Shown: positions 1 through 62,745 of the stretch, one piece after another
How the letters are laid out: the number at the start of each line of letters is the position of its first letter
How positions within the stretch are numbered: position 1 is the stretch's first letter
From: Pelagomonas calceolata
Taxonomy: Eukaryota
DNA length: 64,000 nucleotides
Assembly (NCBI GenBank): GCA_918797485.1
Contig: CAKKNE010000002.1
Location: 3,658,001 to 3,722,000, forward strand
Direction of reading: 5' to 3'
Program-made: the position numbers and the translations under genes
The notes under the pieces: model-generated
What the model saw: the letters and a program-made list of their open reading frames with translations, nothing else
The model's database searches: none
Told to the model about the DNA's origin: nothing

Positions 1-1209
1 TAGTCCGTCATGATACCATCCAAGTCAATAAGACCATCAACTGAATCATGAACAACCTCTCAGAAACAAATAAAGCAGAACGAGCTAGGGGAGATGGATG
101 CGATGCGGGATCTACTTCACGCCCCTCGTTTGCATCAAGATCTACCCGCACCCAACATGGGGTCGACGACATATGTCATGCGAGTAATAAACAAATAAAC
201 AAACTTGAACTAAGGGAAGACCTAAAACAAAGCTTATTAAAAGGAACACGGGCAAGCTCGCTCCTAATTAGTGGCACCGTCACGGTGACTGGCAGGGTAT
301 AGTTCAATAAGTTAGTAAGCCTTTCCAGCGAAATTCCTCCGCATTAGAAAGAAGGACTCACGGTAGTATAGATGCCTCAGGCTCGGGGCCGGCCGGCCGG
401 ACAGGACTCGGATAGAGGGTCCTTTTCGGAGCACTGGCACTGCCAGTGGCAGTTCTAAGTGTGGCAGTCTTCAAAAGTTCGCCAGTGCCCGGTGGGCCCG
501 GGCCCAGGCCACTGGCAGTCACTGAGTCACGGTGTGTAAGCTCAGGCTCACGCCGACTCGGAGCCTTCCCACAGCACAGCACTCAGGCTTCAAGTCACGG
601 TTGGGCGGCCCCGGCCCGGGCGGCGGCTCCGAGTCATGCCAGCCTGGGTGGTCACTGGCCCGGGCACTCAGGCTCAGGCTGACATTGGGGGCGCGGCGGT
701 TGGGGCTAAGCGTGAGATATTTGACCCCTTCGTCGTGCTCTCCGTCCTCGATTTGTTCTTTCTTCGTAGGTAATGTACCGTAGGTACCGTATTCACTAGA
801 CCTACTTTATCCAGGAATTCAAGGTATACGCACATATCATAGCAGGACTGCGGTATAGGTGATTTTTCTTTTCTAGGCATTCACTGTAAAACACTGGCAC
901 TCCCGGGCCGAGTCTACGTCAATAGGCGGAACCTTGTGGGCCCATAACCTAGCAAGAGTATGTCGCAGCATTATTTAAGGTAGCAGGGTCCTAGCTCACC
1001 AGCCAACTTGAAAGGCTGCCAGTGGCCCGGGGCCAGTGGCAACTTGAACCCGGCCCGGGCGGGCCTAACCGTGACTACGAGACTCGGAGTGTTTTATAGC
1101 AAATTGTGTTTACACCGTAGTGTCAATAAATACTCGATGTATAGACTCAAATTTAGAGAGTGGGAGATACATATCCAGGGTAGGAAGGGCTAGTAGGTTT
1201 CTCTCTCTA

Positions 1210-3289: not shown

Positions 3290-4188
3290 CAACAACACCC
3301 CAAACAAGAAAGCCTCACTCGTTGTCCATCCACCAACGACTCATTATGTAACCTACCCGCGGCCAGTCAGGTAGGAATACTAGCAGCACCATTATCTTGA
3401 GATAGGCGCAGATAAGTCCCGCAAAATTCATGCAGGCACAACACGAGCGCTATGAACAGTTTCCAAGTCCCCTTGTCTTCAATGACAACCACATAATGGT
3501 CCAATTCATTCAATGCTTGCCCCTGCCGATTGTCTTAACTGCACCTGCGGCTTCATTTGCATGTCAAACGCAATTGCTGTAGCGCGAGTCCATAGGAGCG
3601 GGCTTGAGTGCTCTGGCCTCCGCAGTCAGAATGCCGCGCGGTTACTTTGAGCTGGGCCAGGGCATGCAGTCACATGGTGTGTTCTCCGAGCGTAAATGAC
3701 GAGCCCAGTAGGACAAACCCCAGTTGGAGTTCTTGGCAAGTGCGATTGACGGGAAGGTAACCCGCTCTAGATACCTCCACTCTTATATTCGCACACCCAA
3801 ATCGGGACCGCACACCGCGCAACAACAATGGCCAACCAGATGATAAAATAGCTGCCATCAAAGTTGCCAGTGACTTAAACTTAAACTTGAATAACTTATG
3901 CCAGTCACGGGCCCGGGCATAATTTTGAAATAAATTTGTGTGGATTAATACACTGGATTAATCATGATTGAAGTGGACCACCCCAATAAATGTCACGGTA
4001 ACACCGCGACCCCTCCAAGACCCACTGTGTTTTACCTTATTTTTTATTTTTTTTTCAATTTCGCATGCTAACTTGAAGCTGGCAGACTTCAAGTTACTGG
4101 CACAGTGACTACTAGTATTAGTATGGTGATGATGATGATGATGATACTGTTGTTAGGGGACTGTTAGGGGAGACTAGTGGAGGTACCG

Positions 4189-4639
4189 TCCCCTAGGCCG
4201 GAACTTGAAGTCGGTTAATTCGTTGGAGTAACATTCTTCCTTACCTTCTCTTAGCTCTAATTAGAATGAATTAGCCTGCGACGCTTAAGGCTCCTTGGAG
4301 ACTTCGAAATTTATAGGGGGGTCGGGCGCAATAGTCGACGTTGGCAGGTTTTGGCGCAATGAGCGTACAGCCACACGCCGGCCGAATGGCGGCAAACTTT
4401 TGCTGAGGCGCAGCTTCCGTATGCTAAAATAATGGGTTGCGTGCAAAGTTTGGTGCATGCGGGCAGCCTCGCGCTGAAAAATCAGCTGCGACGCGGTGAT
4501 GGTCCGAGATAAAACCCGCCCGAAAAACAATCTCTCCAATGGACGGGATAAACCGGCCTCGAATGATCCACTAATTATTTCCTATCGTTCCATATCTATA
4601 TAGGGCTGCTAGGGAATATCCTGCTTCCGGCCCTGCTTA
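4189..4639. repeat. Dispersed repeat family A, copy 1 (non-autonomous element)
   Basis: Aligns with 17061-17443 (high identity) and about 62360-62745 (diverged); short inverted repeats CCGGAAGTCGG / CCGACTTCCG near the ends. Confidence 0.9.
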
Positions 4640-7645: not shown

Positions 7646-9358
7646 CGAGCTGACTGCCTCTCGGCCCCGTCGTAGTGGTCTTCAAAGTCCCATTCAGGCT
7701 GAGGCGTCATTGGTTGCAACGCGTCAATAATGATCTTCGCTGCCTCATGGCCGTGTCGCGGGCACGGCGACGCGCCAAGGCATCCGAGGCCCCTCGGGCA
7801 CGCGAGCCTTCTGAGACGAGGCGGAGGTGTTCTAACGGCGTATCAGACGCCGATGCACACCAGGCGGGGAGTGTAGACTGTGATCATTCTATCGTCCACG
7901 GGAAACATATATGCACGTCCTACCGATCGAATTTGTCAAGAACAGATCCTACCGATCGAATATGGTCCCCCGATGGAAAACTGACCGGTGGCAGTGTGGG
8001 CTTCTGGAGACTAGAGGCGAACCGGTGTGCCTTCTCTACCAGCACCCTGGAGATATATTTGCCGTTCGCGCCGCTCCGGCTTTGGGCCTCGCGGAGAGCG
8101 GCAGCTCTCGGGCCCTGGAAGACCGCTGAACCGCGGTCTTTCAGCGCGCGCGGCGCTTAAGGCACGAGATGATGAAATAGTTATGCCCATTTTTACACCA
8201 AAATGACCTGTTTTTACTCTAATCTGCAAGATTTCCGCTCTAAGGCGAGCGGAAATTTTCAGACATGATTCAAACACATTTTTTTGATAAAAATGGGTCA
8301 TAACCATGTGCCCCTTTTGGCCAACAAAACCCGAACCTTCCCCGAAAAATCGCCGAAGTCGACGTTCCTAGGGGGTAGATCAGGAAAATAAATTTCGACG
8401 TCAATCTCCCCAGACAGACGTGGACACCCCACGCTTAAATTCCGATCAACCTTTCAAATGACACTCGGGGCGATAAGGGCGATAAGGGTGATGTTTTGAG
8501 GTTTTATGAAAATGTAATTTTAGTCTAGGGGGGCGGAATCCTACTAGGAAGGGGTGATGGTGGTCTTAGGGGTGGTGTTTTTTAATCTTCAGGGTAATAA
8601 GGTGTGGCAATGACGGGTGTGGCAATGACGGGCCCTTGCTCCTCGAACTGGCTGTTTTCATTGTTAGACGCATCCGTCCGTACCGTATGAAGTCAAATAT
8701 TATCCAAATAGCGACCATGGCTGTACGGCGTTTTGCGCAAAAAGCACATCAACCGTGACGGCGCAAAAGCGCTTACCCCCCCTAAAAATCGAAGTCTCCA
8801 CGGAACATTAAGTGTCGCAGGGTAATTCAGCACGAATTTACCTTAGGGAGGATCGCTCGGAATCTTACTGTAAAAAAATTCCCGGTGTCCGGCCCTGCTT
8901 ACGTTTCTACTACTACTAGAACTTGAAGTATATTTTAAAGCTCTCAGGGTAAATAGCGTCTCCGAGTCATCCGCTATTCAAAGTTCGCCCCAGGCCGAGT
9001 AATTCACCTGCGGAGCCTGCAACGTCCAGGGTGATACGCTGGGCTGATCGCCAAGCTAACGCCCCGCGAGTAAGATTTCTACACGTACACCTAAAGCGGC
9101 TCGGGCTGTTAATTTTATGTGTCATGGAGAAGGCGCTGTATGTAGTGCTTCGGGCCGTGCACCTGCAAAAGTGTGCGTTATCTTGGGTACTGGCAAGATT
9201 AGGCGCCTAGATATAACCTCTCAGGGAGAGCGCCAACCAGACGTCTTGAGCTATACACTTTAACACCCACACCATTTCACACTGACTAACCAAATGACCG
9301 CGACTCTTGGTGAGGGACAGCGGAAATCTAAGGGGCTAGTCTCAAAGAGTTGGCAATC

Positions 9359-13115: not shown

Positions 13116-13339
13116 TGCTGAGACGCTATCGACACTCAAGTTCGCCATGCGCGCCAAGCGCGTGACCAATGTACCGCGCCTCAACGAGGACCTTGACCAG
13201 GCATCACTACTGCGCAAGTATGAGCGAGAGCTTAGACGCCTCAGTGCCAAGCTCGAAGAGCGAAATCGCAATGTAGTCGATCAACGGTGTCTACTCGAGC
13301 TCGAAGAGCGCCGCCGTCGCGCCGAGAAGAACAAGCATG
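13116..13339 (+). pseudogene. Inverted 224-bp duplicate of an internal part of the neighbouring kinesin gene
   Basis: Reverse complement of 14495-14718 with about 6 substitutions by eye; encodes MRAKRVTNVPRLNEDLDQASLLRKYERELRR. Confidence 0.95.
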
Positions 13340-13607: not shown

Positions 13608-15896
13608 TCAAAGATTCCTTTCTGAGGTGGCAAGGCGCCTCCCAAGCTCGCCTTGGCCGGCCTGTTTCAGCGCTTCGACAGACGCACGGATGAGGCGCCG
13701 CAGTGCGCCAAGATCTTTGAGTGCAAAGGCACGTGCAGCACCGGGCGCTACGTTTTGACGGTCGAGATTTGAGGCGACGCTGTCGACCAGGACCGCAATT
13801 TTCTTTTCGAAGATGGTCTGGACAGCATGGCGCTCCTTGTCGCGAAGCTCAAGTAGGGTCAAGAGCTCGGCGACGCGTTTGTCTGCGCTTGTACCACCGG
13901 CCGCAGCACCACCGACCGCAGCGGCCGCGGCAGGAGCACAATCAAGGGGTCGCATTAGCTTTGCATTATCTGCGCGGCGCACAGTGACGTCATGTCGAGC
14001 TGCGTCTGCCTCGTGAAGTGCCGCCCGCGCTCCACCCTCGAGCTCAAGGCGCTGAATTTGGATGCACTGGGTGGTCTTCTCATCAAGCTTGTTTTCGAGC
14101 GCAGCCTGGTTCCGATCATACGCTTCAAGCTCATCCTGGAGTGCCATGATCTGCTCATCGCGCTCATTGAGCCGCTGAGTTAGCGCGATCATGATATCGC
14201 GCTGCTTGAGCAGTAACTGCTTGTAGCGCTCGACCTGAGCCTTCTCGTGCTCAATACGCTCACGCTCACGCTCGAGATCGGCCAGCCGCGCGTCGTACTC
14301 TGCCGCTGTGTGACGTGCAGGCGACACCTTAGCGTCGTCGATGCCGCCTACCCTGCCACCGACCATCCCGTTCCCCCCGACATCAGTCGAGATCATCTGC
14401 GACGTAAGTTTTAAAATACGCTCCTCGAGACGCGTCTTATCCTCCTTTTCGCGCATGAACTCACGCGAGCGTACTTCGAGCGCGCGAATCGCCGCACGCT
14501 TGTCCTCCTCGGCGCGACGGCGGCGCTCTTCGAGCTCGAGTAGACACCGTTGATCGACTACATTGCGATTTCGCTCTTCGAGCTCGGCGCGGAGGCGTCT
14601 AAGCTCTCGCTCATACTTGCGCAGTAGTGATGCCTGGTCAAGGTCCTCGTTGAGGCGCGGTACATTGGTCACGCGCTTGGCGCGCATGGCGAACTTGAGT
14701 GTCGATAGCGTCTCAGCAATCGACTCAGCTGCTGGCGAGATGGTCGCCAACATGGTTGTGCGACAATTGCCGCCAAGTGAGTCCTCCAGGAGCCGTGTGA
14801 GCTTAGAGTCGCGGTAGGGGACGTGCTTGCGTGTAGTACCGCTTGTCTGCCGCGTAGCAAGGGCGGCTATTACATTTCCGAGGGCTGACAATGACGCATT
14901 GATCTTCTTCGATTCTTCGAGTCGCTGGCCAGTAGCGCCTGAGACACCGACACGCTCGGAACCAGCGAGGTCGACAAGATTAAGCTTCCCCACGCGAAAT
15001 GTTTGCTTGACTCGGTTTTCCAGGCGCGCGAGTGCTTCGGCCCGCTTGAGGCCGGCCGATCGCATTTCACGGGCAAAATCGTCTGGCGCCAACTCACGTC
15101 CGTCCTCACCCACATAGACAGTCTCCGAATGCTCGACGATAACGACAAAAACTGCGTGTGACCGCGACGAGAAGTCATTCATCCTCGTGGCGCCAGTTGC
15201 GCGAGATCGCGAAGCGCGGTCCATTAGCGCGTAGACCTCCGAGGGCTGGCGAACAACCCACTCAGAGAGACCGTCGACGTACACGCCGCGCTTGGGATCC
15301 TCACGGATTGCGAGCGCTTCAAGCGGCGATGCTACCGCACTGGTTCCCTCAGGTGCTATGCCGTTGCGTGGGGGCGCCAAAAGATCCGAAACGATCTCCT
15401 GGTAGATCTGGATGCAAGACGCACGCGCGAGGAAGCGCACGTTTTTCTGTGCGTGTCCTGCAACGTGACGGAAGATCTGTTCGACCGACCGTGGGATGAT
15501 GCCACGTGCAACCGGATCACGGGCCTCAGAGCCGTCCATTGTGTAAGTTTTTCCAGTGCCTGTCTGACCATACGCAAACATCGTGGCATTATAGCCCTGA
15601 AGGCAGCTCTCTACAACCGGCTGTGCGGTTGTTTCGTAGACTTCCGCTTGTGTGCTGCCAGCATCGTACGCATCGTCAAACGCGAACGTGTGCACCGCCA
15701 CGCTGCGCTGGCGATTGATTGTCGGCACATCGTTGTCCACGTCGCTAATTGTCACCGTCTGCAGCCGCTTATCCACGCGCGCTACACTCCCCGACGACTC
15801 GTGCGCGAGTAGCGGCCGTACACGGACGACTACCTTGACCGCATCGTCATGCCCCCTGGGGGAGCGCGCCGCCGACGATCGGTCTAACTCATCCAT
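13608..15896 (-). CDS. N-terminal motor kinesin with coiled-coil tail
   Basis: 762 aa: VKVVVRVRP, FAYGQTGTGKTYTM (P-loop), NDFSSRSHAVF, LVDLAGSER, HVPYRDSKLTRLL, ETLSTLKFA, then coiled coils. Confidence 0.97.
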   Translation of the reverse strand: MDELDRSSAARSPRGHDDAVKVVVRVRPLLAHESSGSVARVDKRLQTVTISDVDNDVPTINRQRSVAVHTFAFDDAYDAGSTQAEVYETTAQPVVESCLQGYNATMFAYGQTGTGKTYTMDGSEARDPVARGIIPRSVEQIFRHVAGHAQKNVRFLARASCIQIYQEIVSDLLAPPRNGIAPEGTSAVASPLEALAIREDPKRGVYVDGLSEWVVRQPSEVYALMDRASRSRATGATRMNDFSSRSHAVFVVIVEHSETVYVGEDGRELAPDDFAREMRSAGLKRAEALARLENRVKQTFRVGKLNLVDLAGSERVGVSGATGQRLEESKKINASLSALGNVIAALATRQTSGTTRKHVPYRDSKLTRLLEDSLGGNCRTTMLATISPAAESIAETLSTLKFAMRAKRVTNVPRLNEDLDQASLLRKYERELRRLRAELEERNRNVVDQRCLLELEERRRRAEEDKRAAIRALEVRSREFMREKEDKTRLEERILKLTSQMISTDVGGNGMVGGRVGGIDDAKVSPARHTAAEYDARLADLERERERIEHEKAQVERYKQLLLKQRDIMIALTQRLNERDEQIMALQDELEAYDRNQAALENKLDEKTTQCIQIQRLELEGGARAALHEADAARHDVTVRRADNAKLMRPLDCAPAAAAAVGGAAAGGTSADKRVAELLTLLELRDKERHAVQTIFEKKIAVLVDSVASNLDRQNVAPGAARAFALKDLGALRRLIRASVEALKQAGQGELGRRLATSERNL

Positions 15897-17060: not shown

Positions 17061-17443
17061 CCCCCTAGCCGGAAGTCGGTTAATTCGTTGGAGTAACATT
17101 CTTCCTTACCTTCTCTTAGCTCTAATTAGAATGAATTAGCCTGCGACGCTTAAGGCTCCTTGGAGACTTCGAAATTTATAGGGGGGTCGAGCGCAATAGT
17201 CGACGTTGGCAGCCTGAGGTTTTGGCGCAATTGAGCGTACAGCCACGCGGCGCCGACCGAATGGCGGCAAATTTTTGCTGAGGCGCAGGTTCCGTATGAA
17301 ACCCGCCCGAAACCCAATCGCTCCAACGGACGGGATAAATCGGCCTCTAATTCCCCACTAATTATTTCCTATCGTTCCATTATTAACTTCCATATCTATA
17401 TAGGGCTGCTAGGGAATATCCGACTTCCGAGGCTGGCTGCTTA
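17061..17443. repeat. Dispersed repeat family A, copy 2
   Basis: GTCGGTTAATTCGTTGGAGTAACATTC..TTCCATATCTATATAGGGCTGCTAGGGAATATCC shared with copy 1; internal deletion. Confidence 0.9.
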
Positions 17444-28308: not shown

Positions 28309-29145
28309 ATAGCCCGAACGTCGCAACTTACTACGAAAGGGCCTTAGGGGGTGCCTCACATTCTGGCGGAGTGTGGGGCCCTGAAAATGCGAGGGGCCGG
28401 AAGGGCCCCCACGCGAACGTCGCGCCAGTCTAGGTTGGCACTTACCATATCCCGTCGGCGGGATATGTTATACGGCACTTACCCGAGGGGTTATTAACCC
28501 CAATCGTGGCCCGGGGTCAGTAACCCGGGTAATTACCCGTTAGTACGGGTTATTAACCCCGCCGGGATCTTATAGTACTAGACTTTCTTATAGAGGGGGA
28601 GGGGGAGGGGGCCTCACGGGCCACTGGCGCGGGCCTGGGCCGCGCCGGGCCACATGACTTGGTACTTGCCTTGGCGCACCTGTACGTACCCAAAAGCTCA
28701 ACGGGCTGCTTGCGCCCATCCGCTCGCCCGGAGGGGTCTTTCGCTAATCTCACTAAACGGGTTTAGTCGAAAACCTGTCGGGTTATTGAGCGGGTTATTG
28801 TCCCGGATCCCCTCCGAGGGGTAATTATAGGTTAATAACGGGTAATTAACAGGTAAGTGCCAACCTAGGCGCCAGTGGCGTTTCGCGTCGTGTTTGCGCA
28901 TCCTCAGGCTACCGACGCCACCGTGACGGGTACCAAGGGGGACTTCGAGGGGGAAATCACCAGCATAGAAGCGAGTTTTGATTTTCACCCCTGAAAACCC
29001 GCGAGTTGAGCTAAATACCCTCACGTTAGGTCATTTTGGGCACCTCACCCCATCTCGAGGGGGGCCCCTCCGTGGCAAGCTAGTGTCGCCGTGTGCTTAG
29101 GATGCCCCTGGGACCAAACGGGCCAAGTTGCGACGTTCGGGCTAT
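28309..29145. mobile_element. Non-autonomous TIR element hosting a nested hAT-like MITE
   Basis: Perfect 21-bp inverted repeat ATAGCCCGAACGTCGCAACTT (28309-28329) / AAGTTGCGACGTTCGGGCTAT (29125-29145). TSD ambiguous (TA, AT or TTAA/TCAA). Confidence 0.85.
28430..28868. mobile_element. hAT-like MITE
   Basis: 17-bp TIR CTAGGTTGGCACTTACC / GGTAAGTGCCAACCTAG, perfect 8-bp TSD GCGCCAGT (28422-28429, 28869-28876), subterminal TAACCCG/TTACCCG/GGGTTATT repeats. Confidence 0.92.
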
Positions 29146-29629
29146 CAATTGAAAATCTCACCAATTTGGCGTCAGGCCCTGTAGATTACGCGTAAAAAAG
29201 CGCGTAAATTACGGCGCACTGCATATAGCATCCGGTGGGCCCCTGAAGGAGATCCCACTTTAAAAACGGCGTAAAAAACAAGGAATCTAAAACTACTGCT
29301 AGCCTGAGGGCTCTCCTCAGCTAGAAGGCGGCCCGGCCGGGCGGGCCCGGGGCCCGGGAGGTACGCGACCCCGAACGTCGCTGATGCAGTCTGACGCCAG
29401 CTGCTCTCCGCGCCGTCATCCACGCGCGTCACATCCCGTAGCATGGTAGGACTCGGATGAGCCTGAGACTCGCCGGACAACTCAGTTTCGCCAGTGAACT
29501 TGACTCGGACTCACTGAGGCTGGCCGGGCAGCCTGCCAGTGAGTGAACCCACTCGGACTCGGAGCCTCTACTCGGATACAATACCCATCATCTCAATAGC
29601 TATAGCTAATATAGAAGCGAGCCAGCTCG

Positions 29630-31202: not shown

Positions 31203-31819
31203 ATTGCGAGTGTATCGGCTGAGTCCACAAATCAACATATACTCTGACCTGATAACGAATGGGGAATTGTTTTCGCTGAGTTTTTGATATTTATTTCCGC
31301 GTTTCTTGTGTTGCAAGTGGCCGGCACGGTGTACTCGCGGTGTGACTCCATGCGCCCCATGCGAGAGGAGTCATGGTCCCGGGATCTCTCCTGGCGGCCT
31401 TACTTAGACTGTACTAAACCCGGTGGCTTCGAGGGAAACTAAAAATGGATAGGAGTCCACAGTGGTCCCCCCCTGGCACCCACTTCCACTGCTCGCCGGC
31501 GGATAAAAGTGGTACTATGATTTTTACAATTGCCACGGCTGCATTGCAGGAAGTAGATAAGCAATTACAAGCCGAAAAGGCAAAGATTGCTCAATTACAA
31601 GGACAAATGAATGACTCAGGCTCCGAGTTCTAGCTCCGAGTTCTACTAGCTCCCGGGCCGCCGAGTCACTGTCGGATGCCAGTGTAGAATGCCAGTGTGC
31701 TACTACTATGCCTTGGAGAATTATTCAGCATTCACTTATATAATGGGTAATAATTCTAATGATGATCTATCGAAATTTAGAAAGGGCCCGGGGGGCCGGG
31801 CCCGGGTCATTCTAGGCCG

Positions 31820-31913
31820 TAGGGTGCAGTTTACGCACGGCGTTTTTACGTGGGATCTCCTGCAGCGGTGCTTTACGCGTAATTTGCGCGTTTTCCACGT
31901 AAACTGCACCTTA
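31820..31913. mobile_element. Short MITE (hAT-like); related pieces at about 29175-29290 and 32558-32591
   Basis: TIR TAGGGTGCAGTTTACG / CGTAAACTGCACCTTA with TCTAGGCC near both ends; shared GGAGATCCCAC..AAAAACG and CGCCGTGCGTAAA..GCACCCTA in the other copies. Confidence 0.75.
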
Positions 31914-32002
31914 TCTAGGCCCGGGGGGTCAAACACTTAAAATCTTACCGTGACGAGACTCAGGCTGAGAATGATACTGTGTATAGATACCTTACTGCTA
32001 TT

Positions 32003-32118
32003 TCGAGCAGGAAGAAGACTCTTAGGAGCTTGTTCCTTTTTTAGGTCTTCCTTAATTTATTTATTTATTTTATTTTCAAGTTATTTATTCAAGTTTGCTT
32101 TGCTTAGCCTGAGAGCAT
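32003..32118. repeat. Dispersed AT-rich repeat family C; inverted copy at about 56912-57000, related piece at about 185-265
   Basis: Shared CTTAGGAGCTTGTTC..GTCTTCCTT..GCTTTGCTTAG. Confidence 0.7.
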
Positions 32119-33197
32119 TTAATTGCTACTAGTACTATGCTACACTGGCCCGGGCACTAGCCCCCTCTTATTCTCCTCTATAGTCCCACCTTGACGTAAT
32201 GAAGGTTCACACCCCACTCATACATAGTGCTAGTATTACACGCCGGCGGGGAGTCACTAGCGCCAAACTCACTCACACCGTTGCAGGGGGTCGGTATACC
32301 ACCGCACCCCTCATATTTCCTGCAAAAAAGGAGGTATAAAAATCCTTCCGGCGCAGCAGGTGTCAGCTAGCGGCCCTTTAAGACACTACTAGTGGCTGCC
32401 CCAAACGCTGTCAGGTCCGAGCCAATTGCTAGTTGCATGCTGTTGCGAGCATGGTGTGCACTCTAGGTGCGCACTTGTGCAACCGTGCTCGTGCTGCTAT
32501 TGAGCTGTGTGGCTACCAAGTCCCTTTTAGTCGCTCTGGCTGCTCTGGACCGTTTCTCACGTAAAAAACGCCGTGCGTAAATCGCACCCTAGTAAAATTG
32601 TTGGTGAAGGATCAGGTTTTATAGCAACAATGGAAGATATGGATGAACTCGACATCCCCGCGGCTGGAATGTACAAGCTTGGAGAAGAAATTGTTCAAGG
32701 CTCAGAGAAGCTTAAGGTGTTGGAGATCTCGGGGAAAGGCCCGGGCGGCTGGGCCCGGACTCTGACTCGGGAGTCAGGCCCGGGCTCGGCCAAGGTTGTG
32801 CGGGTTAGGGGCAGAAAATCTCAATGAGCCTGGCGTGGGCGATTTCGGGGATTTCCTCCGAGAGATAGCAACTGCGGCACCGAGTTTGTCGACGTGCAAC
32901 TGCACGCCGCCAAGGATCGCTGGCGGAGGCCCCTGATACGTGCAACTGCCCCTGACGCATTTCGCTGGCTATGGTGCTTCCATGGGCTGCCCCGGCGCGG
33001 CCCATTGCCCTCAGATGCCCCGCGATAAGTCGAAACGGCGTGACGGAGGCCCAACTTCGGGTGCTGTAGCTCGCGCTGTAGGCGCGCGCTGCCGCGTGCA
33101 AACTCACGGCTATCTCACGGCTATACCTTGAGGCACCACCGCCGTAGCTAGCAAAAGCTCAGCCCCTCTAATAATCTACCTGTAAGTAAATTGTAGG

Positions 33198-36100
33198 TTG
33201 AGAGTCGACTCTCAGGAACCGATGATAGAGTGCGGCGACTCGCGCGATTCTCTGCATTTGGTTTATTACGTGCCGCGTCACCGTACGATTTATTATGCGG
33301 CCGACAGTAGCCACGTGGATGATTGTGCGCCTCAAGACGTCCTCTTAGATAAATGGCGACGACCTCCATGTTCTCTGTTTCATCGGCTGTCTAGCACGCG
33401 TGATTGTTTACACCACGACAGCCATCGTTCGATACTGATGAGCGATGTGAACTCAAATATACCAACACGGCGAGTTACTTGTGAAGTCGTAACTAACAAA
33501 ATTCAACAGCAATCTAGTGTTTTCTTTCAGCGGGCAGAAGCCGGAACCAAAGCCATCTCTCTTAATTCAGTAACTGGTCTTTTCGACATGATCGGATATT
33601 CCATTACTGGTATTGAAGCAACATCTCACTCTCTGTTGGGGGGTTCTCCTGTAGCAGACATGTCTAGTAATGTCGCTTTCAAGAGCGACGAATCTATATT
33701 TGAGCTCGCCGGCGACATAGAAAACACAGCTGGGCCATCTCGACTCAACGAATCGCTCACATCGACAAACAGCCATGATGCAGAGAGTGACACAAGTGCC
33801 ACCAGGACTACTCTGCCTAGCCCAGCCGCAGCAGGTTCCAAATCAGTTACAATAGGCGCTGGTGATCGACCCCTTCTCATTGCGGAACTAATGCCCATGG
33901 CCTCTGAGATGCAACCTGCAGTTGCTCCATCCGAGATCGTCCTAGATTGCGTTCACATGGTTTTCAACAACGTTTCACACAGTAATCTCGAGGCTAAGGT
34001 CAAGGATATCGCTCCGCTGCTGCACGAGGAACATTTTGGGTGGTTTGCAAATTATTTGGTGGTCAAACGGATCTCCACGCAGCCAAATTTTCACACACTG
34101 TACCTGGCCTTTTTGGAGAAGTTAGGTGCAGATGAACCCAAGCAGAAGCTTTTAAAATGCGTCATCAGCGCTGTCTTTCACAATATTGCCAAACTGCTTC
34201 GGTCATCAAAAATAACCACATCTACTAGTGAACGATCACTCCTCAAGAATCTTGGTAGCTGGCTAGGACAAATAACCCTGGCGAGGAATCGACCTATTCT
34301 TCAACGCCAGCTTGATGTGAAGGAGCTTTTATATCAAGGCTACGAGTCCGGTCGCCTCATTGCAATCTGTCCGTTTGTGGCTAAAATCCTTGAAGGTGCC
34401 AAGTCATCTGCTGTGTTCAGACCACCGAATCCTTGGTTGATGGGCCTGATGGCTGTTCTAAGAGATCTTTATGACATCCAGGAACTGAAGATGAACATAA
34501 AATTTGAGATCGAGGTTCTCTCGAAGCACCTAGGAATAAAGCTCGACGAGGTCACAGGCCCTGCTACTCTTGCATTTCGATGTCCGCCCGTGAAAGCTCG
34601 ATCTCCTGATTTTAACATCAAGCGAGCTGCCACAGATCCAATTTCAGAGACCCCGTTTGGCAAAGGACTCTCTTCGAATCCTCCCCACCGAGTAAGTTCC
34701 ATGTCACAGCAACAAACGCAACAACGTCAACAGGTTCAGTCTGCAGGTTATGCGTTGAAGCGTGAGAACAACGCAGTGCGCACCTTCGCAGCTGGCCAAT
34801 CTGCCTCGAACATTGCACCAGGGGGGCCTGATTTATTGCAATCACCACTGCCACCGCAAGCACAGCAGCAACCAGGGCTCTCGGAGCAAACTGTGATACC
34901 AAACCTTGCATCATACATAACGATTTCTGCGCAAATTGCGTCTGGACCTAGTGGTGCAGCTATGCGCCGTGTGGCACCGGTAGCTGTTGATCGGGCGATT
35001 CGAGAAATTATACAGCCTGTTGTGGAACGAAGCGTCACGATCGCGTGCATTACAACGAGGGATCTAGTTGCAAAGGACTTTGCCACTGAACCAGAAGAAA
35101 GTCGCATGCGCAAGGCAGCACAGCTCATGGTTTCTAACCTTGCGGGCAGCCTTGCCCTGGTTACATGTAAGGAACCGCTCCGTGTTAGTATTGCTAAACA
35201 TCTCCGTGCACTACTCCAGCAGCAGCCCGGCTCCTTTTCAGGCAGTGACCAGCACGAGCAACACGCAGTACAAACGTGTGCAGCTGAAAATCTAGACTTG
35301 GGTTGTATGCTCATCGAGAAGGCGGCAACTGAAAAGGCCATTCGTGACATTGATGAGGCGCTAGCTCCAGCTCTGAATGCGCGACAAAAGCGCTTCGAAC
35401 AAGGTCGTGGCTACTCCGATATGATAAGCCCTTTTGGCACTGGCGAGGGGCGATATCCTGCAGCTTTGCCTGAGGCCTTGAGACCAAAGGCAACTGGCCT
35501 TCTTGCGCATCAATTTTTTGTCTACGAAGCTTTTCAACGAATGCCAAGACAAGCTCACTTCCCGCAGCAAAGCGCCCATCAAGCAGCCAACCAGCAAGCA
35601 TCTTCGGCCCACATGCAACAGCAACAAAAGCAAAATCAGCAGCAAAATGTTTCGCGAGTGCCTGAAGCTGCATCAAACCAAGCCCAGCTATCAGGTTACT
35701 CAAGCCGTTTTCGCAGTGGTGCCTGCGGCGGTGCTGCCACTCTGTCTGCAATTGCCCAGCAAGCAGCTGCTGAGCGTCCATCCATCTCAATAGCCGAATT
35801 GATGGACGCATATCGTTCAGCAACAGCAAAACTCGATGCAGAGTTCGCATCACTCACTGCCAAGATGCCAAATGCTGCTGTCGACATCAATTTTGTTCAA
35901 TTACGGAACCATCCCATTTCTGTGCACGTCGGCGAGTTATTGCTCGCAGCTGCACGGGTTGATCACACCTCTAGAGATGATGCAGCATTAGCAATAGCGC
36001 AATCCACTTTCAAGGCGATGTGTGAGCAACGGGCGCTGGAGCCACCTGTCCGACTTGAGACATTAGCAATTGTCCTTGCTGCCGTTGCAGATATTTCAGC

Positions 36101-38371
36101 GCATCTTGTGCGCGACGAGGTGGCCAACTGGATCGCCTTTCTTCCCGCACATTCTGATGCTGATCGCTTCCTCCATGCTCATGTACTTGTGCGCCTGCTT
36201 GGAGTGGAGCTACTAGATGTTGCTGAGCTTGACGCTTATCTTGCGCGGAACATGGATGGAGGTCGGTCCCAACCTTGGCTTGACGTAGCGCTTAACTTTG
36301 TCGAGCTGAGTGTCGCAAAATACCATCTTGCAACATTTCCTGCCGACCTTCAGCGAATCGCGCGGGTTCTAGAAGTTGTCGCACGGCAACCACACCCACC
36401 ACCTGCCCTCAGGCGCCTTGTTGCTGCTCTGTCTGCAGACCAGCAGGGTCGTGCACACCAGCAGAAGTTGCAACAACAGCAGCAGAAGCTCGAAGAACCC
36501 AAGCAGCAATCAGCAACACAGCAGCAATTTCAGCATATCAACTCGGGGCTTGACGCTGGACTCAATGCGCTCAACATTACAGTGAGGAGAGCAATTTCGG
36601 GCACAAACGATGTGCAGAGCAATGTCGGGCATACCGTGAATGCGACTTGTGCTGCTCGGGAGTTGCGCCTGGCAAGTATAGTACCGGAGGACCCTGCTGG
36701 CGCTAGAGAACAAGTCACGGGGTTATTAGAGCAATGGATCCGCGTCTGGAATGAATCACCTGGGTCCGAGAAAGCCTACGCCCAATATCTGACATTGCTG
36801 CAACAACATGGTGTACCGAGAAACGAACAATCAACAGAGCGGTTCGTTCGCCTAGCCACAGTCATTTGCGTTGAGTCATGCGTCGAATCGCGAACAGCGG
36901 AGGAGGGTGCAAGCGCAGACAGCTTAGGTGTGCTTACCTATTCAGTTGTCGACGCCTATGCCAAGTTATTGATCTTATTAGTCAAGTATGCTATTCCTGA
37001 CTCAAGCCCCAGCACTGTATTAGCTGGCACACCGCAGCGCTTGGACCTGTTAAATCGCGTCCTCTTGACCTTGACACGCACTCTTGTGTCCAATTACGAC
37101 AAAACTGTGGAAATGGATAACTTTGACCAAAGACCCTACTTTCGTCTATTTCTAAACCTCCTTCAGGATTTAAATGTGCCAGATCCAGTTCTTGATTCAT
37201 CTAACCCACGTGTCTTGGCAGCATTTGCTACTGTGCTGCATGCGTTGCAGCCGGCAGTCACGCCTGGTTTTGCCTTCTCTTGGCTTGAGCTTGTCTCGCA
37301 TCGAATGTTCATGCCTAATCTTCTGCTCGCTAAGAATCAGAAGGGCTGGGCTTTGATGCACCGCTTACTTGTGGATCTATTTGTGTTTCTCGAACCCTAC
37401 CTTCGACAGGTTCAGCTCTCAGATGCGGCTCGACTCCTGTATAAGGGTGCGTTACGAGTCCTCTTGGTCTTACTGCACGATTTTCCGGAGTTTTTGAGTG
37501 ACTATCACTTCTCGTTCTGCGATGTCATTCCATCATCATGCATTCAACTTAGAAATCTTTTCTTGTCCGCGTTCCCTCGTTCAATGCGCTTGCCTGATCC
37601 CTTTACTCCAAATCTCAAAGTTGATCTGCTTCCTGAGATAAGTCAACCTCCTCGTATCCTATCAAATTGCGTCATCGCTCTGGAGGCCTGTGCCTTACGC
37701 GAGCCGCTGGACGAATACCTCCTGACACGCCACCCTATCTCCTTCCTCCTGGACCTCCCGAGGAAGCTCCTGGATGCAAATACAAACAATGATCATGTTA
37801 TAACCTCATATAATGTGCCCTTGGTAAATTCGCTTGTAGTCCATGTTGGCATGACTGCGATTTCCCAGCTCCATACTAAAAGTGGGAATCTGCAACAGCC
37901 GATCGCTCATAGTACACCTATGGATGTCTTCCAGCACCTCATGAACAACTTGGACTCCGAAGGAAGATACTTTCTCCTAAATGCAATTGCGAATCAGCTA
38001 AGATATCCAAACAATCATACACATTATTTTTCATGTGTCCTCTTATATCTTTTTGCTGAGGCGACTAGCGAATATATTCAAGAACAGGTTACGCGTGTGC
38101 TGCTCGAGCGACTGATAGTACATCGGCCGCACCCCTGGGGACTTCTTATCACTTTTATCGAACTCATAAAAAATCCTAGATACTCTTTTTGGTCTCATGG
38201 ATTTACTCACTGTGCAACAGAAATCGAACGAGTCTTTGAGTCTGTTGCTCGTTGTATCCCGCGTCGTGCTGCAACCCACATTCTTCAGAAATGACTCTCA
38301 TAGGTTCTTGCATGGGCCCCGGCCACGTATCAAACATTACAGGCGAATCAAAACTTGATCAGAGTCAGTGA
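33198..38371 (+). CDS. CNOT1: CCR4-NOT scaffold subunit NOT1; 5' end unresolved
   Basis: CAF1-binding MIF4G (FNNVS..NYLVVKRISTQPNFH, ERSLLKNLGSWLG), DUF3819 (AIREIIQPVVERSVTIA), and the NOT1 C-terminal domain (LLNAIANQLRYPNNHTHYFS, RLIVHRPHPWGLLITFIEL). A final short intron gives VARSCMGP..TGA at 38369-38371. Confidence 0.96.
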
Positions 38372-38773
38372 GTCTCTACTGGGCCCAGTCGCATGCGTCG
38401 GCCAATGACGCCAAACGCTAAATCGGACTCAACTATTACCTACTACTAAAAGCCTGAGCCTGAGGCCGGGTGACCTACCCATTGTATTTAGTACCCCTTG
38501 CCAGATGGGTAACTTCGCAACTGCGTCTCGCCGCGAAAGTGACCCCTTCCCCCCAACCCGGTCTCGGGGCGTACAAAGGGACTCTTCAAGGGCCGAAGTT
38601 TGGGACCCCGCAGCCAAAATCGCCCCTTAGGGGTGACCGTCACAACCCAGCCCGAAAATGGGAAAATAAACCTCTTGAATAGTACGTAAAATATACTATG
38701 ATTAAAAAAAAAACCTCTTGAATTAAACGAGTGGTGGAGACTAGGGCGGCCGTCGCTGCCATATCATGATGCA

Positions 38774-38990
38774 CACTGGCAAATGTAATTTTAATGCCGG
38801 GCCCTGGCCGCTCAAGACGGCTCACGCCGTGCACTGCCAGTCACGGTGCCAGTGCGGCCACTGGCAGTGGCAGCCTGAGGCTGAGTGGCACCGTCACGGT
38901 GACGGTGACTCACTCAGTGTCCAGGCTGTGGCAGGCTCAGGCTCAGGCTCAGCCTGAGGCTGGCAATAAATATGTGCAGTTCCACCGTGA
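38774..38990. repeat. Dense array of overlapping XY-C-rc(XY)-G-XY footprint words
   Basis: CACTGGCA, GTCACGGT, TGCCAGTG, AGCCTGAG, tandem CTCAGGCT and ACCGTGAC in near-continuous succession. Confidence 0.85.
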
Positions 38991-39203
38991 CGACCGGTAC
39001 TTGTAGGTATAGTTATTTATAGACCCGTAACTTTAACGTATGAGTTACGGCGTTACGGCGTTACAAGAAAAAATAAGATCCAGGAAGTCCAGGAAGTAGA
39101 TAAGAACCAGCCCTTTATTTTAAGTCACTGGGTGAATACTTAGAAGCCTGGTCTTCTACACTGTATCGGTAGAATCCCAGAGAGGCTTTTAGCTAACTAT
39201 TGG

Positions 39204-40352
39204 ATGGCGTCTGACCCTGCCATCTCAATCGGGAACTACAAGGGTGTGATGCTATGCAACAGGCCCTTTGTTGGCGCCGTGAGCCAATCCAAGAAGGGGG
39301 GCGCGCCGGCAAAGCAAGCGTTCGTTTGCGGGAAGGTTGACAATAAGCTCGGAGCGACCATACCTATTTCCAAAGGGAAAATCGCAAAAATCAACCAGCG
39401 CTCTAGAAAGGAAACAGCACTTCAACGGCATAGGAAGCTGACTGCAGCGCCTATGACACGACCTTGTGCTTATTATTTCTATTAGGTGGTTAGCAGAGTT
39501 GCAAGCAACTAAGGATCAGCTGGAAATGCAATATTTAAAGGTGTGTCTGGCGGATTATAGCTGACTCAATTGCTTATGATAAGTTCTTAGGACATTCAGA
39601 AAAAAGAGACAAAGCACAAAAAATTCATGGACCGCGAAGCTAAAATGCGTGAGGTAGTTCGTAAGGTAAGGGATGACAGGACCTATGGGTGCGCCGATCT
39701 GGACTCTCAAGAAAAATATGACAAAAATCAAGTAAATGACAACGTTGTAATGGAAGTTGAACTATCCCCGGAGGCATCATCAGGCGCTGCAGGAGATTCG
39801 TCACGACCCATGTGGGCGCTGACAGAAGACCAGGCAAAAGAATTTGCTGGGGGTATTGAAACTGCAGAGGCAGATGACCTTCTCAGTTTTGCAAACAGTC
39901 TAGACTTCGATAAATATATTAATGATACTGAAATTTCAGCACTGGTACAAAATGTCCGCTCTCGTATTTGTGAGCTCGAAGCATATCAGGACTCTGTTTT
40001 GAAACGCCCGATCGACACGTCTTTAAGTTGTAAAACTTCATCAGCGATGAAACCCATTTCAGATGATCTGGATGTCCTCTCTGGAGAGCCAGCTGAGTGC
40101 TCAGACAACACTATGTCCCTAGTGAAGTCAGTTCTCGCATCAGAAGCAGGCAAGTCGGTTGGCGCTATTCATTCACAAAAGTCGCTGATTGCAGTTACAG
40201 AGAAATCGAAGAGCACAATGAAGGAGAACAAACAAGGTTGGGCAGTACCTCTTCCACTAGTTGTGAACCATCCTAATGATGCAACAGGCACCATAGAAGG
40301 AAAAAATTCGGCATCAAACCTACCATATATGCATCGCAATCCAGCAATCTGA
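39204..40352 (+). CDS. Conserved hypothetical protein, 3 exons
   Basis: IGNYKGVMLCNRPF..ALQRHRK|WLAELQ..YLK|DIQKK..RPMWALTE..DDLLSFANSLDFDKYIND..NLPYMHRNPAI. Introns 39437-39485 (GC-AG) and 39541-39590 (GT-AG) restore one frame. Confidence 0.8.
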
Positions 40353-40649: not shown

Positions 40650-40890
40650 ATGCGATGCATAGGGAAATAGAATGTGTAGCTCCGGACTTTCCCGGCAGCG
40701 TAGTGTAGTCGTCTAACGAAATAGTTTCTCCCATGTTTGATGGGGTTTGTGACGGGGAATTGCGTCCGTCAATAAAAGTGACTCAGGATGATAATAGTTA
40801 GGAGTGAGAGGCGACTTCCCCCTACTAAGGGGATATCGGAGTACCCTAGGATGGGAAGTAGCCTAGGCGAGTAATACAAGTACGGGTTGT
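40650..40890 (-). repeat. Dispersed repeat family B, inverted copy of 57086-57341
   Basis: About 240-bp near-identical reverse complement. Confidence 0.9.
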
Positions 40891-53947: not shown

Positions 53948-54904
53948 CACGTTTGCTTAGCCCCGTAATTATATTGGGAGCTGGACCATACCGCCTCAAG
54001 CTAGCTCTGCCCTGGGGCCGATAGATAAAATATAGGATTCAGCTTACCCTAGTCTCCCTAGTGGCTAGTGAAAGTAGTAGCAGACTAATAGTTGGGAATT
54101 TCTTCTTTGCTCAGTTGTCGCCCACCGGGTCAACCAATCCCGGGGACAGGTAGTAGATCCCCCCGGGCCCCATCAAACAGGGAGGGAGGGCGGGCTAAAT
54201 AAATCTGAGGACCGACACAAACCACAGCCAATTTGGCTTTGTGGTTGGGCGGAGAATCCGAGGGGAGCCTAAGGCTAGTACAGTAACCAGGGAACTGCTA
54301 GCTGGCTTCTAGCCTCGCGTTAGAATTTGGTACACTCACGGAGGTGTCCCAGCCCAAAGGGCAGCCCAGGAATAACCTGGGTTGTGTTTGGTGCCATAAT
54401 AGACCCTATGGTGCTGGAAGCCAGCGTTGAGAAAATTTCTCAGGCACATGGTGCCTCTTTGTGTAAACGATACTAGTGCATCTGTCTCTTTCTCTAGTAG
54501 CCCGGGCCGCGGCCTGCAACTCTGCGAATAACGCAAGACCAAAGGTACGCACCTTTTGGAGTACAGCGGCTGAGACAGTCCGCCAAAGAACTAGCCTATG
54601 TCCGGGCCGGCTAGGGCAAGCATTAGTTATCACTTCAAGTTTAGGCCCGGGATCGTTAGCGAGCTCGCCCGGCCAAGTTGAAGTCGGCGATAGTATCATG
54701 ATATGCGGGAGACTCGGATAGCACACCGTGGCACGAGTTGAGATAAGTTGGGCCCGGCCCGGGGCCGGCCCGGGACTCAGAATCTAGGACTCGGACTCGG
54801 ACTCCTCAGGCTAATTGGACCCAGCGGTCCGGCGTAGGCCTATTTATCGTGTTCCGCCAGTGGATCTGTAAGGGGCCTATTTCCGGCCTGATCGAGGCAC
54901 TAGC

Positions 54905-56764: not shown

Positions 56765-57085
56765 GCTCAAGTCCAGCGCTTACATATCTGGGTGCCGTGG
56801 TGAGTGACGTGAATACATGTATTAGTGCTTGAACAAACTAGCTACGGGAGTCTGGGCCGGCCCCGCAGCGAAGCCGGGGCGGATTTGGAAATAAGTAAAT
56901 ACATAAATCACGGCCTAGCTCTAAGCAAAGCAATAAACAAGTAAATAAAGGAAGACAAAAAAATGAACAAGCTCCTAAGACTCTAGTAGGAGCCTGCTCC
57001 GAGTCCGACTCGCCGGGAGTGCAATGGATTCAATGGAAATACACGTCTAGTAGGATCACAAGGTTCAACTGAGACGTATCCAAGC

Positions 57086-57341
57086 ACAACCCGTACTTGT
57101 ATTACCCGCCTAGGCTACTTCCCATCCTAGGGTACTCCGATATCCCCTTAGTAGGGGGGAGTCGCCTCTCACTCCTAACTAGTTTCATCCTGGGTCACTT
57201 TTATTGACGGACGCAATTCCCCGTCACAAACCCCATCAAACATTGGGAGAAACTATTTCGTTAGACGACTACACTACGCTGCCGGGGAAGTCCGGAGCTA
57301 CACACTCTATTTCCCCGGGCCTCAGGCTATCATGCATCGCA
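57086..57341 (+). repeat. Dispersed repeat family B, followed by decayed ORF pieces (57369-57831); possible 5' end of a retroelement
   Basis: Matches the reverse complement of 40650-40890 apart from substitutions and stacked short insertions at 57314-57333. Confidence 0.85.
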
Positions 57342-62359: not shown

Positions 62360-62745
62360 CCCCAAGTCGGGTAATTCTTTCTTGTAAGATTTTGACGCAT
62401 ACTCCATGAGTCCTAATTAAGATAAATTACCCTGTGAATCTTAATACTGCGTTGAGACTTCGAATTTTATAGGGGGTTAAGCGCACCCGTCGACGTTGAT
62501 TTTGCGCAATGTCGCGACAGCCACGCGCCGAATGGCGGGAAATTTTTGCTGAGGCGCAGGTTCCGTATGCTAAAATAATGGGCTGTGCGCAATTTGGTAC
62601 CATGCGGGCGACCGCGACCACTGCGATAAAACCCGAACCCGAACCCAAAATCGCCCTGAGACTTATAAATTGAACCATAATTACGAAAAAATTATTTCCT
62701 AACGTTCCATATCTATATAGGGCTCTAAGGGATTTTCCTCCTTTT
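62360..62745. repeat. Dispersed repeat family A, copy 3 (diverged)
   Basis: Shares GAGACTTCGAA..TATAGGGGG, GCTGAGGCGCAGGTTCCGTATGCTAAAATAATGGG and ATTATTTCCT..CGTTCCATATCTATATAGGGCT. Confidence 0.85.

What the first reader, a model, noticed from the sequence alone, without database searches (positions are those of the whole stretch)
38774..38990. Intergenic tracts made largely of nested scars (hotspots upstream of genes)
This tract is nearly continuous overlapping words, including tandem re-insertion (CTCAGGCTCAGGCTCAG). Similar tracts lie at about 270-700, 890-1090, 3865-3920, 4070-4150, 29300-29575, 31610-31810, 32735-32790 and 54600-54815 (GACTCGGACTCGGACTC). Several sit tens to a few hundred bases 5' of genes (kinase, DAW1, NOT1, the 39204 gene, TCTE1). 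Inference: open promoter chromatin is the target, and scar density may be a clock of cumulative transposition in a low-recombination region.
Basis: partly seen in the sequence, partly recalled or inferred. Interest (0 to 1): 0.7.

Follow-up and report, generated by a model that had tools for sequence, protein, structure and literature searches.

The report
Six-base transposon scars in ocean alga
The DNA between genes of the abundant ocean alga Pelagomonas carries clusters of one stereotyped six-base insertion that differs between wild copies of the species about as often as point mutations in this spacer; these are likely scars left each time an unidentified jumping gene cut itself out, and they are not confined to gene starts.

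Summary
Observation largely confirmed; promoter reading not supported. The words share one grammar, ab-C-revcomp(ab)-G-ab, for any dinucleotide ab: 159 in the window versus 28.6 in shuffles. The host is Pelagomonas calceolata. Among 12 conspecific haplotypes, 10 of 14 clean 6-bp indels are exact de novo ab→scar changes (0.014 expected). In the spacer holding the tract, the window and L002 differ by 9 scars and 9 SNPs. Collapsing scars removes 33% of the tract and makes two haplotypes identical, so 'largely' means a third to a half. Scars avoid gene bodies (0.21/kb) but are equally dense in convergent, tandem and divergent spacers (4.3, 5.6, 4.7/kb), with no shift toward the ATG. Best mechanism (inferred): excision of a 2-bp-TSD, C…G-ended transposon (CMC-like) through flanking hairpins rejoined on 2-bp microhomology. 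The central C/G do not depend on the flanks, unlike Ac/Ds. No donor element or transposase was found. The scan noted similar scars before on other DNA (smut fungi, Perkinsus, a freshwater alga). The 'clock' is uneven.

The parts
38774..38991 (.). Scar tract: 10 exact ab-C-rc(ab)-G-ab words, partly nested; 12 collapse steps remove 72 of 217 bases
38774..38781 (.). CA scar; empty allele (CA only) in L002, L004, L005
38840..38854 (.). GT scar overlapping a TG scar; the GT scar is absent in L002, L004, L005 (nested insertion caught as a polymorphism)
38936..38963 (.). Tandem CT scars plus AG scar; L002/L004 carry four further 6-bp units here (CT, CA, CT, TG), L005 three
38451..38464 (.). AG site seen with 0 (L002, L004), 1 (L001, L003) and 2 (window, L006) scars
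39054..39203 (+). Proximal upstream block, about 72% identical in the sister species and free of scars; the tract lies beyond it
38868..39203 (+). Stretch covered by a spliced RNA contig of the downstream gene, so the distal half of the tract may lie in a transcribed leader (a contig cannot show a start)
   Evidence: table 8, X15 record 5
39204..40352 (+). Pelagophyte gene of unknown function (349 aa; cluster holds CAH0368859.1 of P. calceolata), downstream neighbour
33222..38371 (+). NOT1 gene, upstream neighbour (start approximate); no scar of the 14 enriched words in 5.1 kb
3865..4150 (.). Scar clusters between two convergent 3' ends (RNA contigs end at 3840 and 4588): counter-example to promoter restriction
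4202..4209 (.). AA scar inside one repeat copy; the 91%-identical copy at about 17070 has the empty AA
17211..17218 (.). AG scar inside that second repeat copy; the copy at about 4345 has the empty AG
270..1090 (.). Densest scar tracts of the window, 250-1070 bp before the kinase RNA contig; 30-31% collapsible
29300..29575 (.). Scar tract 55-330 bp before the DAW1-like ATG
31610..32160 (.). Scar clusters in the DAW1-NOT1 spacer, over 1 kb from the NOT1 start; 5 scars here are absent in L004
54600..54815 (.). Scar tract in the divergent Tra1-TCTE1 spacer

Best explanation
The tract is a pile-up of one stereotyped +6-bp insertion (ab → ab-C-revcomp(ab)-G-ab) that is polymorphic in wild Pelagomonas calceolata and is likely the excision footprint of an unidentified cut-and-paste transposon predicted to make 2-bp target duplications and to end in C…G. 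Shown: the grammar, the empty and filled alleles, gain polarity in repeat copies, nesting, and absence from gene bodies. Inferred steps: (1) the element inserts at almost any dinucleotide ab, giving ab|C…G|ab; (2) on excision each flank is sealed as a hairpin whose loop keeps the element's terminal base (first nick one base inside the element); (3) host enzymes open the hairpins to ab-C-rc(ab) and rc(ab)-G-ab and join them on the shared rc(ab); (4) repeats of this cycle in the same spacer, plus some slippage and deletions, build tracts. Scars survive between genes on either side; selection against the inserted element in transcribed DNA, nucleosome-poor targets at both gene ends, or local hopping could each cause the clustering, and the data do not separate them.
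For: Grammar 159 vs 28.6 and specific to k=2. 6 bp is the commonest indel size above 1 bp (14 of 89), 10 of 14 are de novo scars, 0.014 expected. Reciprocal single-copy scars in paralogous repeat copies and singleton scars in L003, L005, L009 point to gain. Hairpin prediction met: after removing full scars, the inverted half ab-C/G-rc(ab) is enriched for non-palindromic ab (477 vs 384, z 5.2; A/T centre z -1.2), while the direct form ab-C/G-ab is enriched for self-complementary AT/TA (136 vs 83, z 5.9) and not for non-palindromic ab (387 vs 387). Flanks of scars take all four bases, so C and G come with the event. CMCT-clade elements mostly have CA..TG ends and 2-5 bp TSDs, PlavakaB 2 or 3 bp (PMC12730594, passages). 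Flank hairpins, P nucleotides and microhomology joining are shown for Ac/Ds (PMC5873905, passages) and for hAT/Transib/MULE (PMC5499845, passages). Same grammar in a sister species (27 vs 4.6) and in L023 (48 vs 4.6).
Against: No filled site ab|C…G|ab was identified in the window or in the loci scanned (part's output was cut), and no transposase domain in 111 ORF scans. The published hairpin rule for Ac/Ds centres palindromes on the complement of the flank base, which these scars break, so step 2 has no tested precedent that I saw. Footprints of known elements are heterogeneous; these are very uniform. The CG/GC +3 excess is non-specific (A/T centres are also enriched). The genome papers report no transposon accumulation in the low-GC regions. 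Distant loci L015, L019, L024 show no clear excess.
Confidence: 0.75

Rival explanations
1. A host or domesticated nuclease, not a mobile element, makes a 2-base staggered break and repair adds the C/G and the inverted copy (Spo11/topoisomerase VI-type cut or polymerase-theta-type templated insertion; both recalled, not tested).
For: No donor or transposase found; product very uniform; deletions with short repeated ends are common in the same spacers.
Against: A constant C then G, independent of the flanks, has no obvious source without element ends; the inverted-half signal fits hairpins; the low-GC regions are proposed to be recombination-cold.
Confidence: 0.15
2. One reading: the same scars, but specifically targeted to open promoter chromatin and usable as a clock of transposition.
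For: Peak of 8.6/kb at 151-300 bp before ATG vs 3.8/kb after stop; the four L023 spacers with clusters all precede a gene start; introners of Aureococcus are reported to favour nucleosome linkers (PMC9860276, passages).
Against: Convergent spacers are as dense as divergent ones (sister 5.4/kb); 12/kb between two RNA 3' ends; no shift toward the ATG in 10 tandem spacers; the scar:SNP ratio ranges from 6:2 to 1:7.
Confidence: 0.2
3. The words are selected transcription-factor sites or ordinary microsatellite slippage.
For: 3 of 14 six-base indels are tandem duplications; the tract sits 215-430 bp before an ATG.
Against: All dinucleotides are used; 10 indels are not copies of neighbouring bases; the tract does not align with the sister species while the scar-free proximal block does.
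Confidence: 0.03

Closest known systems
Ac/Ds (hAT) excision footprints with P nucleotides (PMC5873905, PMC2921059; passages read)
   Same: Short inverted copies of flank DNA around a single central base, joined on microhomology.
   Different: There the centre is the complement of the flanking base, the TSD is 8 bp and outcomes vary; here the centres are always C then G, the duplicated unit is 2 bp and one product dominates.
CMCT-clade transposons: EnSpm/CACTA, Mirage, Chapaev, Transib, PlavakaB (PMC12730594; passages read)
   Same: C…G (CA..TG) ends and 2-5 bp TSDs match what the scar predicts; Transib forms flank hairpins (PMC5499845).
   Different: No element or transposase found here; I saw no sequence-level footprint data for a 2-bp-TSD member (the dahlia and soybean CACTA papers give footprints only in figures or as lengths).
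Tc1/mariner footprints (TA + element-end bases + TA; recalled, and abstract start of PMC4561436)
   Same: Duplicated dinucleotide around bases left from the element's ends.
   Different: Those have a fixed TA and a fixed filler; here ab is free and the filler mirrors it, which needs a hairpin.
Scar arrays noted earlier in this scan (smut fungi, Perkinsus, an 8-bp-TSD eukaryote, a freshwater alga; unchecked AI notes)
   Same: Dense forward-inverted-forward scars in non-coding DNA read as hairpin excision footprints.
   Different: Other unit lengths and hosts; this case adds population alleles and scar:SNP counts.

Membership tests
Hairpin-type excision footprint (works like hAT/Transib/RAG) | Inverted copy of flank bases (P nucleotides) at the joint | tested here: met
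   Central dinucleotide is rc(ab) in 10 de novo indels; inverted half enriched
Hairpin-type excision footprint (works like hAT/Transib/RAG) | Empty and scarred alleles at the same site, scar derived | tested here: met
   polarity from paralogous copies and singletons, no outgroup aligns in the tract
Hairpin-type excision footprint (works like hAT/Transib/RAG) | Filled allele (element present) at a scar site | tested here: inconclusive
   None found in window or loci scanned; whole genome not held
hAT (Ac/Ds) footprint | Palindrome centred on the complement of the base next to the element | tested here: not met
   Empty alleles flanked by A/T give C and G centres too; flanks unconstrained
hAT (Ac/Ds) footprint | 8-bp (5-8 bp) target duplication | tested here: not met
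   Only the 2-base form is enriched among k=1-5; k above 5 not counted; 8-bp-TSD MITEs exist in the window but are separate
CMCT clade (EnSpm/Mirage/PlavakaB) | C…G termini and 2-5 bp TSD | tested here: inconclusive
   Read from the scar only; no element seen
CMCT clade (EnSpm/Mirage/PlavakaB) | DDE transposase of the clade in the host genome | not testable with these tools
   No genome held; 0 transposase hits in 111 ORF scans of window and loci
Tc1/mariner footprint | TA-only target and fixed filler | tested here: not met
   All dinucleotides used, filler varies with ab
Promoter-targeted insertion | Excess near 5' ends over 3' ends | tested here: not met
   approximate gene models, 14 genes and 10 tandem spacers, so low power
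Promoter-targeted insertion | Overlap with open chromatin | not testable with these tools
   No ATAC/MNase data on hand

The most novel reading that the evidence does not exclude
A still-active, undescribed CMC-type transposon of pelagophytes excises with a chemistry not yet recorded (nick one base inside its own end, terminal C kept in the flank hairpin) and is repaired almost deterministically. It then acts as a rule-governed mutator that rewrites the spacers and 5' leaders of the gene-rich putative centromeres of one of the ocean's most abundant eukaryotes at about the rate of point mutation, while leaving almost no copies behind.
Probability: 0.35. Interest if true: 0.72.

Novelty: new variant of a known kind. 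Interest (0 to 1): 0.52.

Why it matters
If right, a fifth to a third of the sequence in these tracts is the residue of transposition that repeat annotation misses; the genome papers saw no transposon build-up in these regions. The scar also predicts the ends, TSD and cleavage position of an element nobody has isolated, a direct test of how 2-bp-TSD CMC transposases cut. Because scars are homoplasy-prone but unmistakable and segregate in ocean populations, they could mark recent transposition bursts per lineage, though not as a steady clock.

Tried and rejected
Whole genome not held; the metagenome records behind the loci are not searchable either. Donor search: TIR/TSD scans of the window and 15 loci gave hAT-like MITEs (8-bp TSD), a repeat with about 10-bp flanking duplications, an ambiguous TIR element at 28311-29143 and a G-ended MITE in L013, none clearly ab|C…G|ab. 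The 28311 TIR had 0 matches in viral contigs. Wider distribution: 121 viral loci with the tandem word held at most 4 other scar words; a three-word pattern gave 0 viral hits and 6 prokaryotic hits whose three-word matches look like chance (L150 showed 13 vs 3.5 words, not followed up). The BLAST-based indel list was discarded for counting because it forced alignment through non-homologous parts of L007/L009/L010; one search replaced it (its 89 rows include a few large events listed twice with different flanks). Read laying indel tables were dominated by repeats and truncated, so they gave no scar alleles. A strict target preference (A/C before, G/T after in 10 of 10 events) did not hold in further events or across all scars. 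GC content vs scar density across 16 spacers: rho -0.35, p=0.19. Huff et al. 2016 could not be read.

Full report
Host and setting. The protein encoded at 39204-40352 falls in a 173-member cluster that includes CAH0368859.1 of Pelagomonas calceolata. The window is gene-rich with mostly 43-58% GC and short introns, which fits the low-GC putative centromeric regions described for this species (10.1101/2021.10.25.465678 and PMC9481584, passages; 10.1101/2024.10.30.620910, passages). That the window lies in such a region is inferred from GC; no genome was held. The main texts of these three papers have no hit for 'palindrom', and PMC9481584 none for 'footprint'; I did not open their supplements, where a note on low-GC regions could bear on this.

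The grammar. The window holds 159 such 8-mers against 28.6±5.7 in 100 local dinucleotide shuffles; 14 words are clearly enriched and the two all-GC self-complementary ones are near background. The analogous forms with units of 1, 3, 4 or 5 bases show no such C…G excess. Insertion into the middle of an existing scar, or in tandem, yields the CC, GG and GC variants, which are the next most common.

The tract. Ten exact words start in 38774-38990, covering 32% of it; iterative collapse removes 12 scars, 33% of the bases, against 0.145 steps in 200 shuffles; the other eight named tracts lose 18-32%. So the tracts are real, but a third to a half scar, not nearly all.

Empty and filled alleles. One metagenome scan gave 24 loci with a relative of the 39204 gene: 11 conspecific, 3 from a sister species (81-84% protein identity) and 10 more distant. 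Among the window and the 11 conspecific loci there are 89 clean single indels; 14 are 6 bp, the commonest size above 1 bp; 10 are exact de novo scars, 1 a tandem scar, 2 hexamer duplications inside the tract and 1 an ATGATG insertion; 0.014 matches were expected. A scar-aware alignment of the NOT1-39204 spacer gives 9 scars, 9 SNPs and 13 other gaps between the window and L002 (three of the nine could equally be slippage); 5 scars and 18 SNPs in the DAW1-NOT1 spacer against L004; but only 1 scar and 6-7 SNPs against the L007 group over the tract and downstream. After collapse L002/L004 and L005 become identical and L007/L009 differ by one base; pairs with L010, which has a deletion inside a scar, get worse. 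Two copies of one repeat in the window differ by reciprocal scars at 4202 and 17211, and several scars are private to one haplotype, so the change is most likely a gain.

Not conserved sites. The sister spacer shares a roughly 170-bp block just before the ATG (72% identity, scar-free) but not the tract, although it has 14 scars of its own.

Mechanism (inferred). A transposon with a 2-bp TSD and C…G ends gives ab|C…G|ab. If excision seals each flank as a hairpin that keeps the terminal base, opening gives ab-C-rc(ab) and rc(ab)-G-ab, which join on rc(ab) to the observed 8-mer. This predicts inverted half-scars for any ab, but direct +3 products only when ab is self-complementary. After removing full scars from 29 kb of spacers, ab-C/G-rc(ab) is enriched for non-palindromic ab (477 vs 384; A/T centre not), ab-C/G-ab is enriched for AT/TA (136 vs 83) and not for non-palindromic ab (387 vs 387); the CG/GC class is enriched non-specifically. 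Hairpin footprints with microhomology are established for Ac/Ds, but there the centre is the complement of the flank base (PMC5873905, passages; PMC2921059, passages). Here the flanks vary freely, so the scar is not an Ac-type footprint. C…G ends with 2-5 bp TSDs fit the CMCT clade (PMC12730594, passages). No donor and no transposase were found, which is the main gap.

Position. With approximate models for 14 genes, gene bodies hold 8 scars in 38.7 kb (0.21/kb, about chance), and spacers hold 4.3/kb (convergent), 5.6 (tandem) and 4.7 (divergent). The 500 bp before ATG vs after stop hold 44 vs 29 (p=0.57), with a hint of a peak 151-300 bp upstream. In 10 tandem spacers from three lineages, 6 have the median on the ATG side and the mean relative position is 0.51. 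RNA contigs place the 3865-4150 tracts between two 3' ends (12/kb), while three 3' UTRs hold 2 scars in 1.3 kb. A spliced contig covers 38868-39436, so part of the finding's tract may be in a leader; contigs cannot show starts. The pattern is 'between transcripts', not 'promoters'. The tract is nonetheless a hotspot within its spacer (p=0.002, partly circular; p=0.05 using only events absent from the window).

Range. The grammar is strong in the sister species (27 vs 4.6) and in L023 (48 vs 4.6), weaker in L018 and L020 (13 vs 3-4), and not clear in L015, L019, L024.

Novelty. Ten paper searches (listings and abstract starts, with passages read as cited) found no description of this scar or of such arrays in pelagophytes; the library lacks most subscription papers. 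Earlier notes of this scan report like arrays with other unit lengths in other genomes (unchecked), and none for this DNA. I rate it a new variant of a known kind: a well-supported mutational process with an inferred transposon, and a promoter/clock reading that the data do not back.

Noticed in passing
window 28430-28868 and 31819-31925: hAT-like MITEs with CTAGG ends and 8-bp TSDs; the first has about 100-fold depth in run X2; the second has an 8-bp TSD in L004 and an empty site in L007/L009. Contrasts with the report of no transposon build-up in low-GC regions.
   Followed up: partly
window 28311-29143: 833-bp element with 18-bp TIRs and palindromic flanks, so its TSD could be AT, TA or GC; with GC it would start with C and be a donor candidate. 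Multi-copy by depth. Not resolved.
   Followed up: partly
window 776-791 and 1213-1291; L021-L023 about 60-110 bp before the orthologue's start: Arrays of TACCGTA/TACGGTA and TAGGTA/TACCTA forming palindromes; could be a second footprint class (TA + 3 bases + TA, Tc1/mariner-like) or a promoter motif.
   Followed up: no
window 4190-4639, 8718-8901, 17062-17443, 62364-62743: Repeat family without terminal inverted repeats; two copies are flanked by about 10-bp direct repeats, MULE-like or retroposed.
   Followed up: partly
window 40662-40890, 57040-57315, 32016-32075: High-copy repeat ending in (TTTA)n, SINE- or LINE-tail-like; its copies collect scars.
   Followed up: partly
window 13116-13339 vs 14495-14718: 224-bp inverted, 97% identical copy of part of the kinesin coding sequence just past its 3' end; could form antisense or hairpin RNA.
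   Followed up: no
window 33186-38294: NOT1 ORF carries the CAF1-binding, DUF3819, ARM and Not1 domains but no Pfam hit for the N-terminal HEAT part; the gene may be split or have upstream exons.
   Followed up: no
L004 6755-8620 vs window 38407-38410: The NOT1-39204 spacer is 2.9 kb in L004, 0.85 kb in the window and 0.76 kb in L007, with about four deep haplotype groups: rapid spacer turnover within the species.
   Followed up: partly
L013 6080-6323: 244-bp MITE with long TIRs starting GGGG and CT on both sides (2-bp duplication, G…C ends); itself contains scars.
   Followed up: no
L023 3846-4017 vs window 32147-32324: 90% identical repeat shared with a locus whose 39204 relative is only 41% identical: transfer between pelagophytes, or L023 is a paralogous region.
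   Followed up: no
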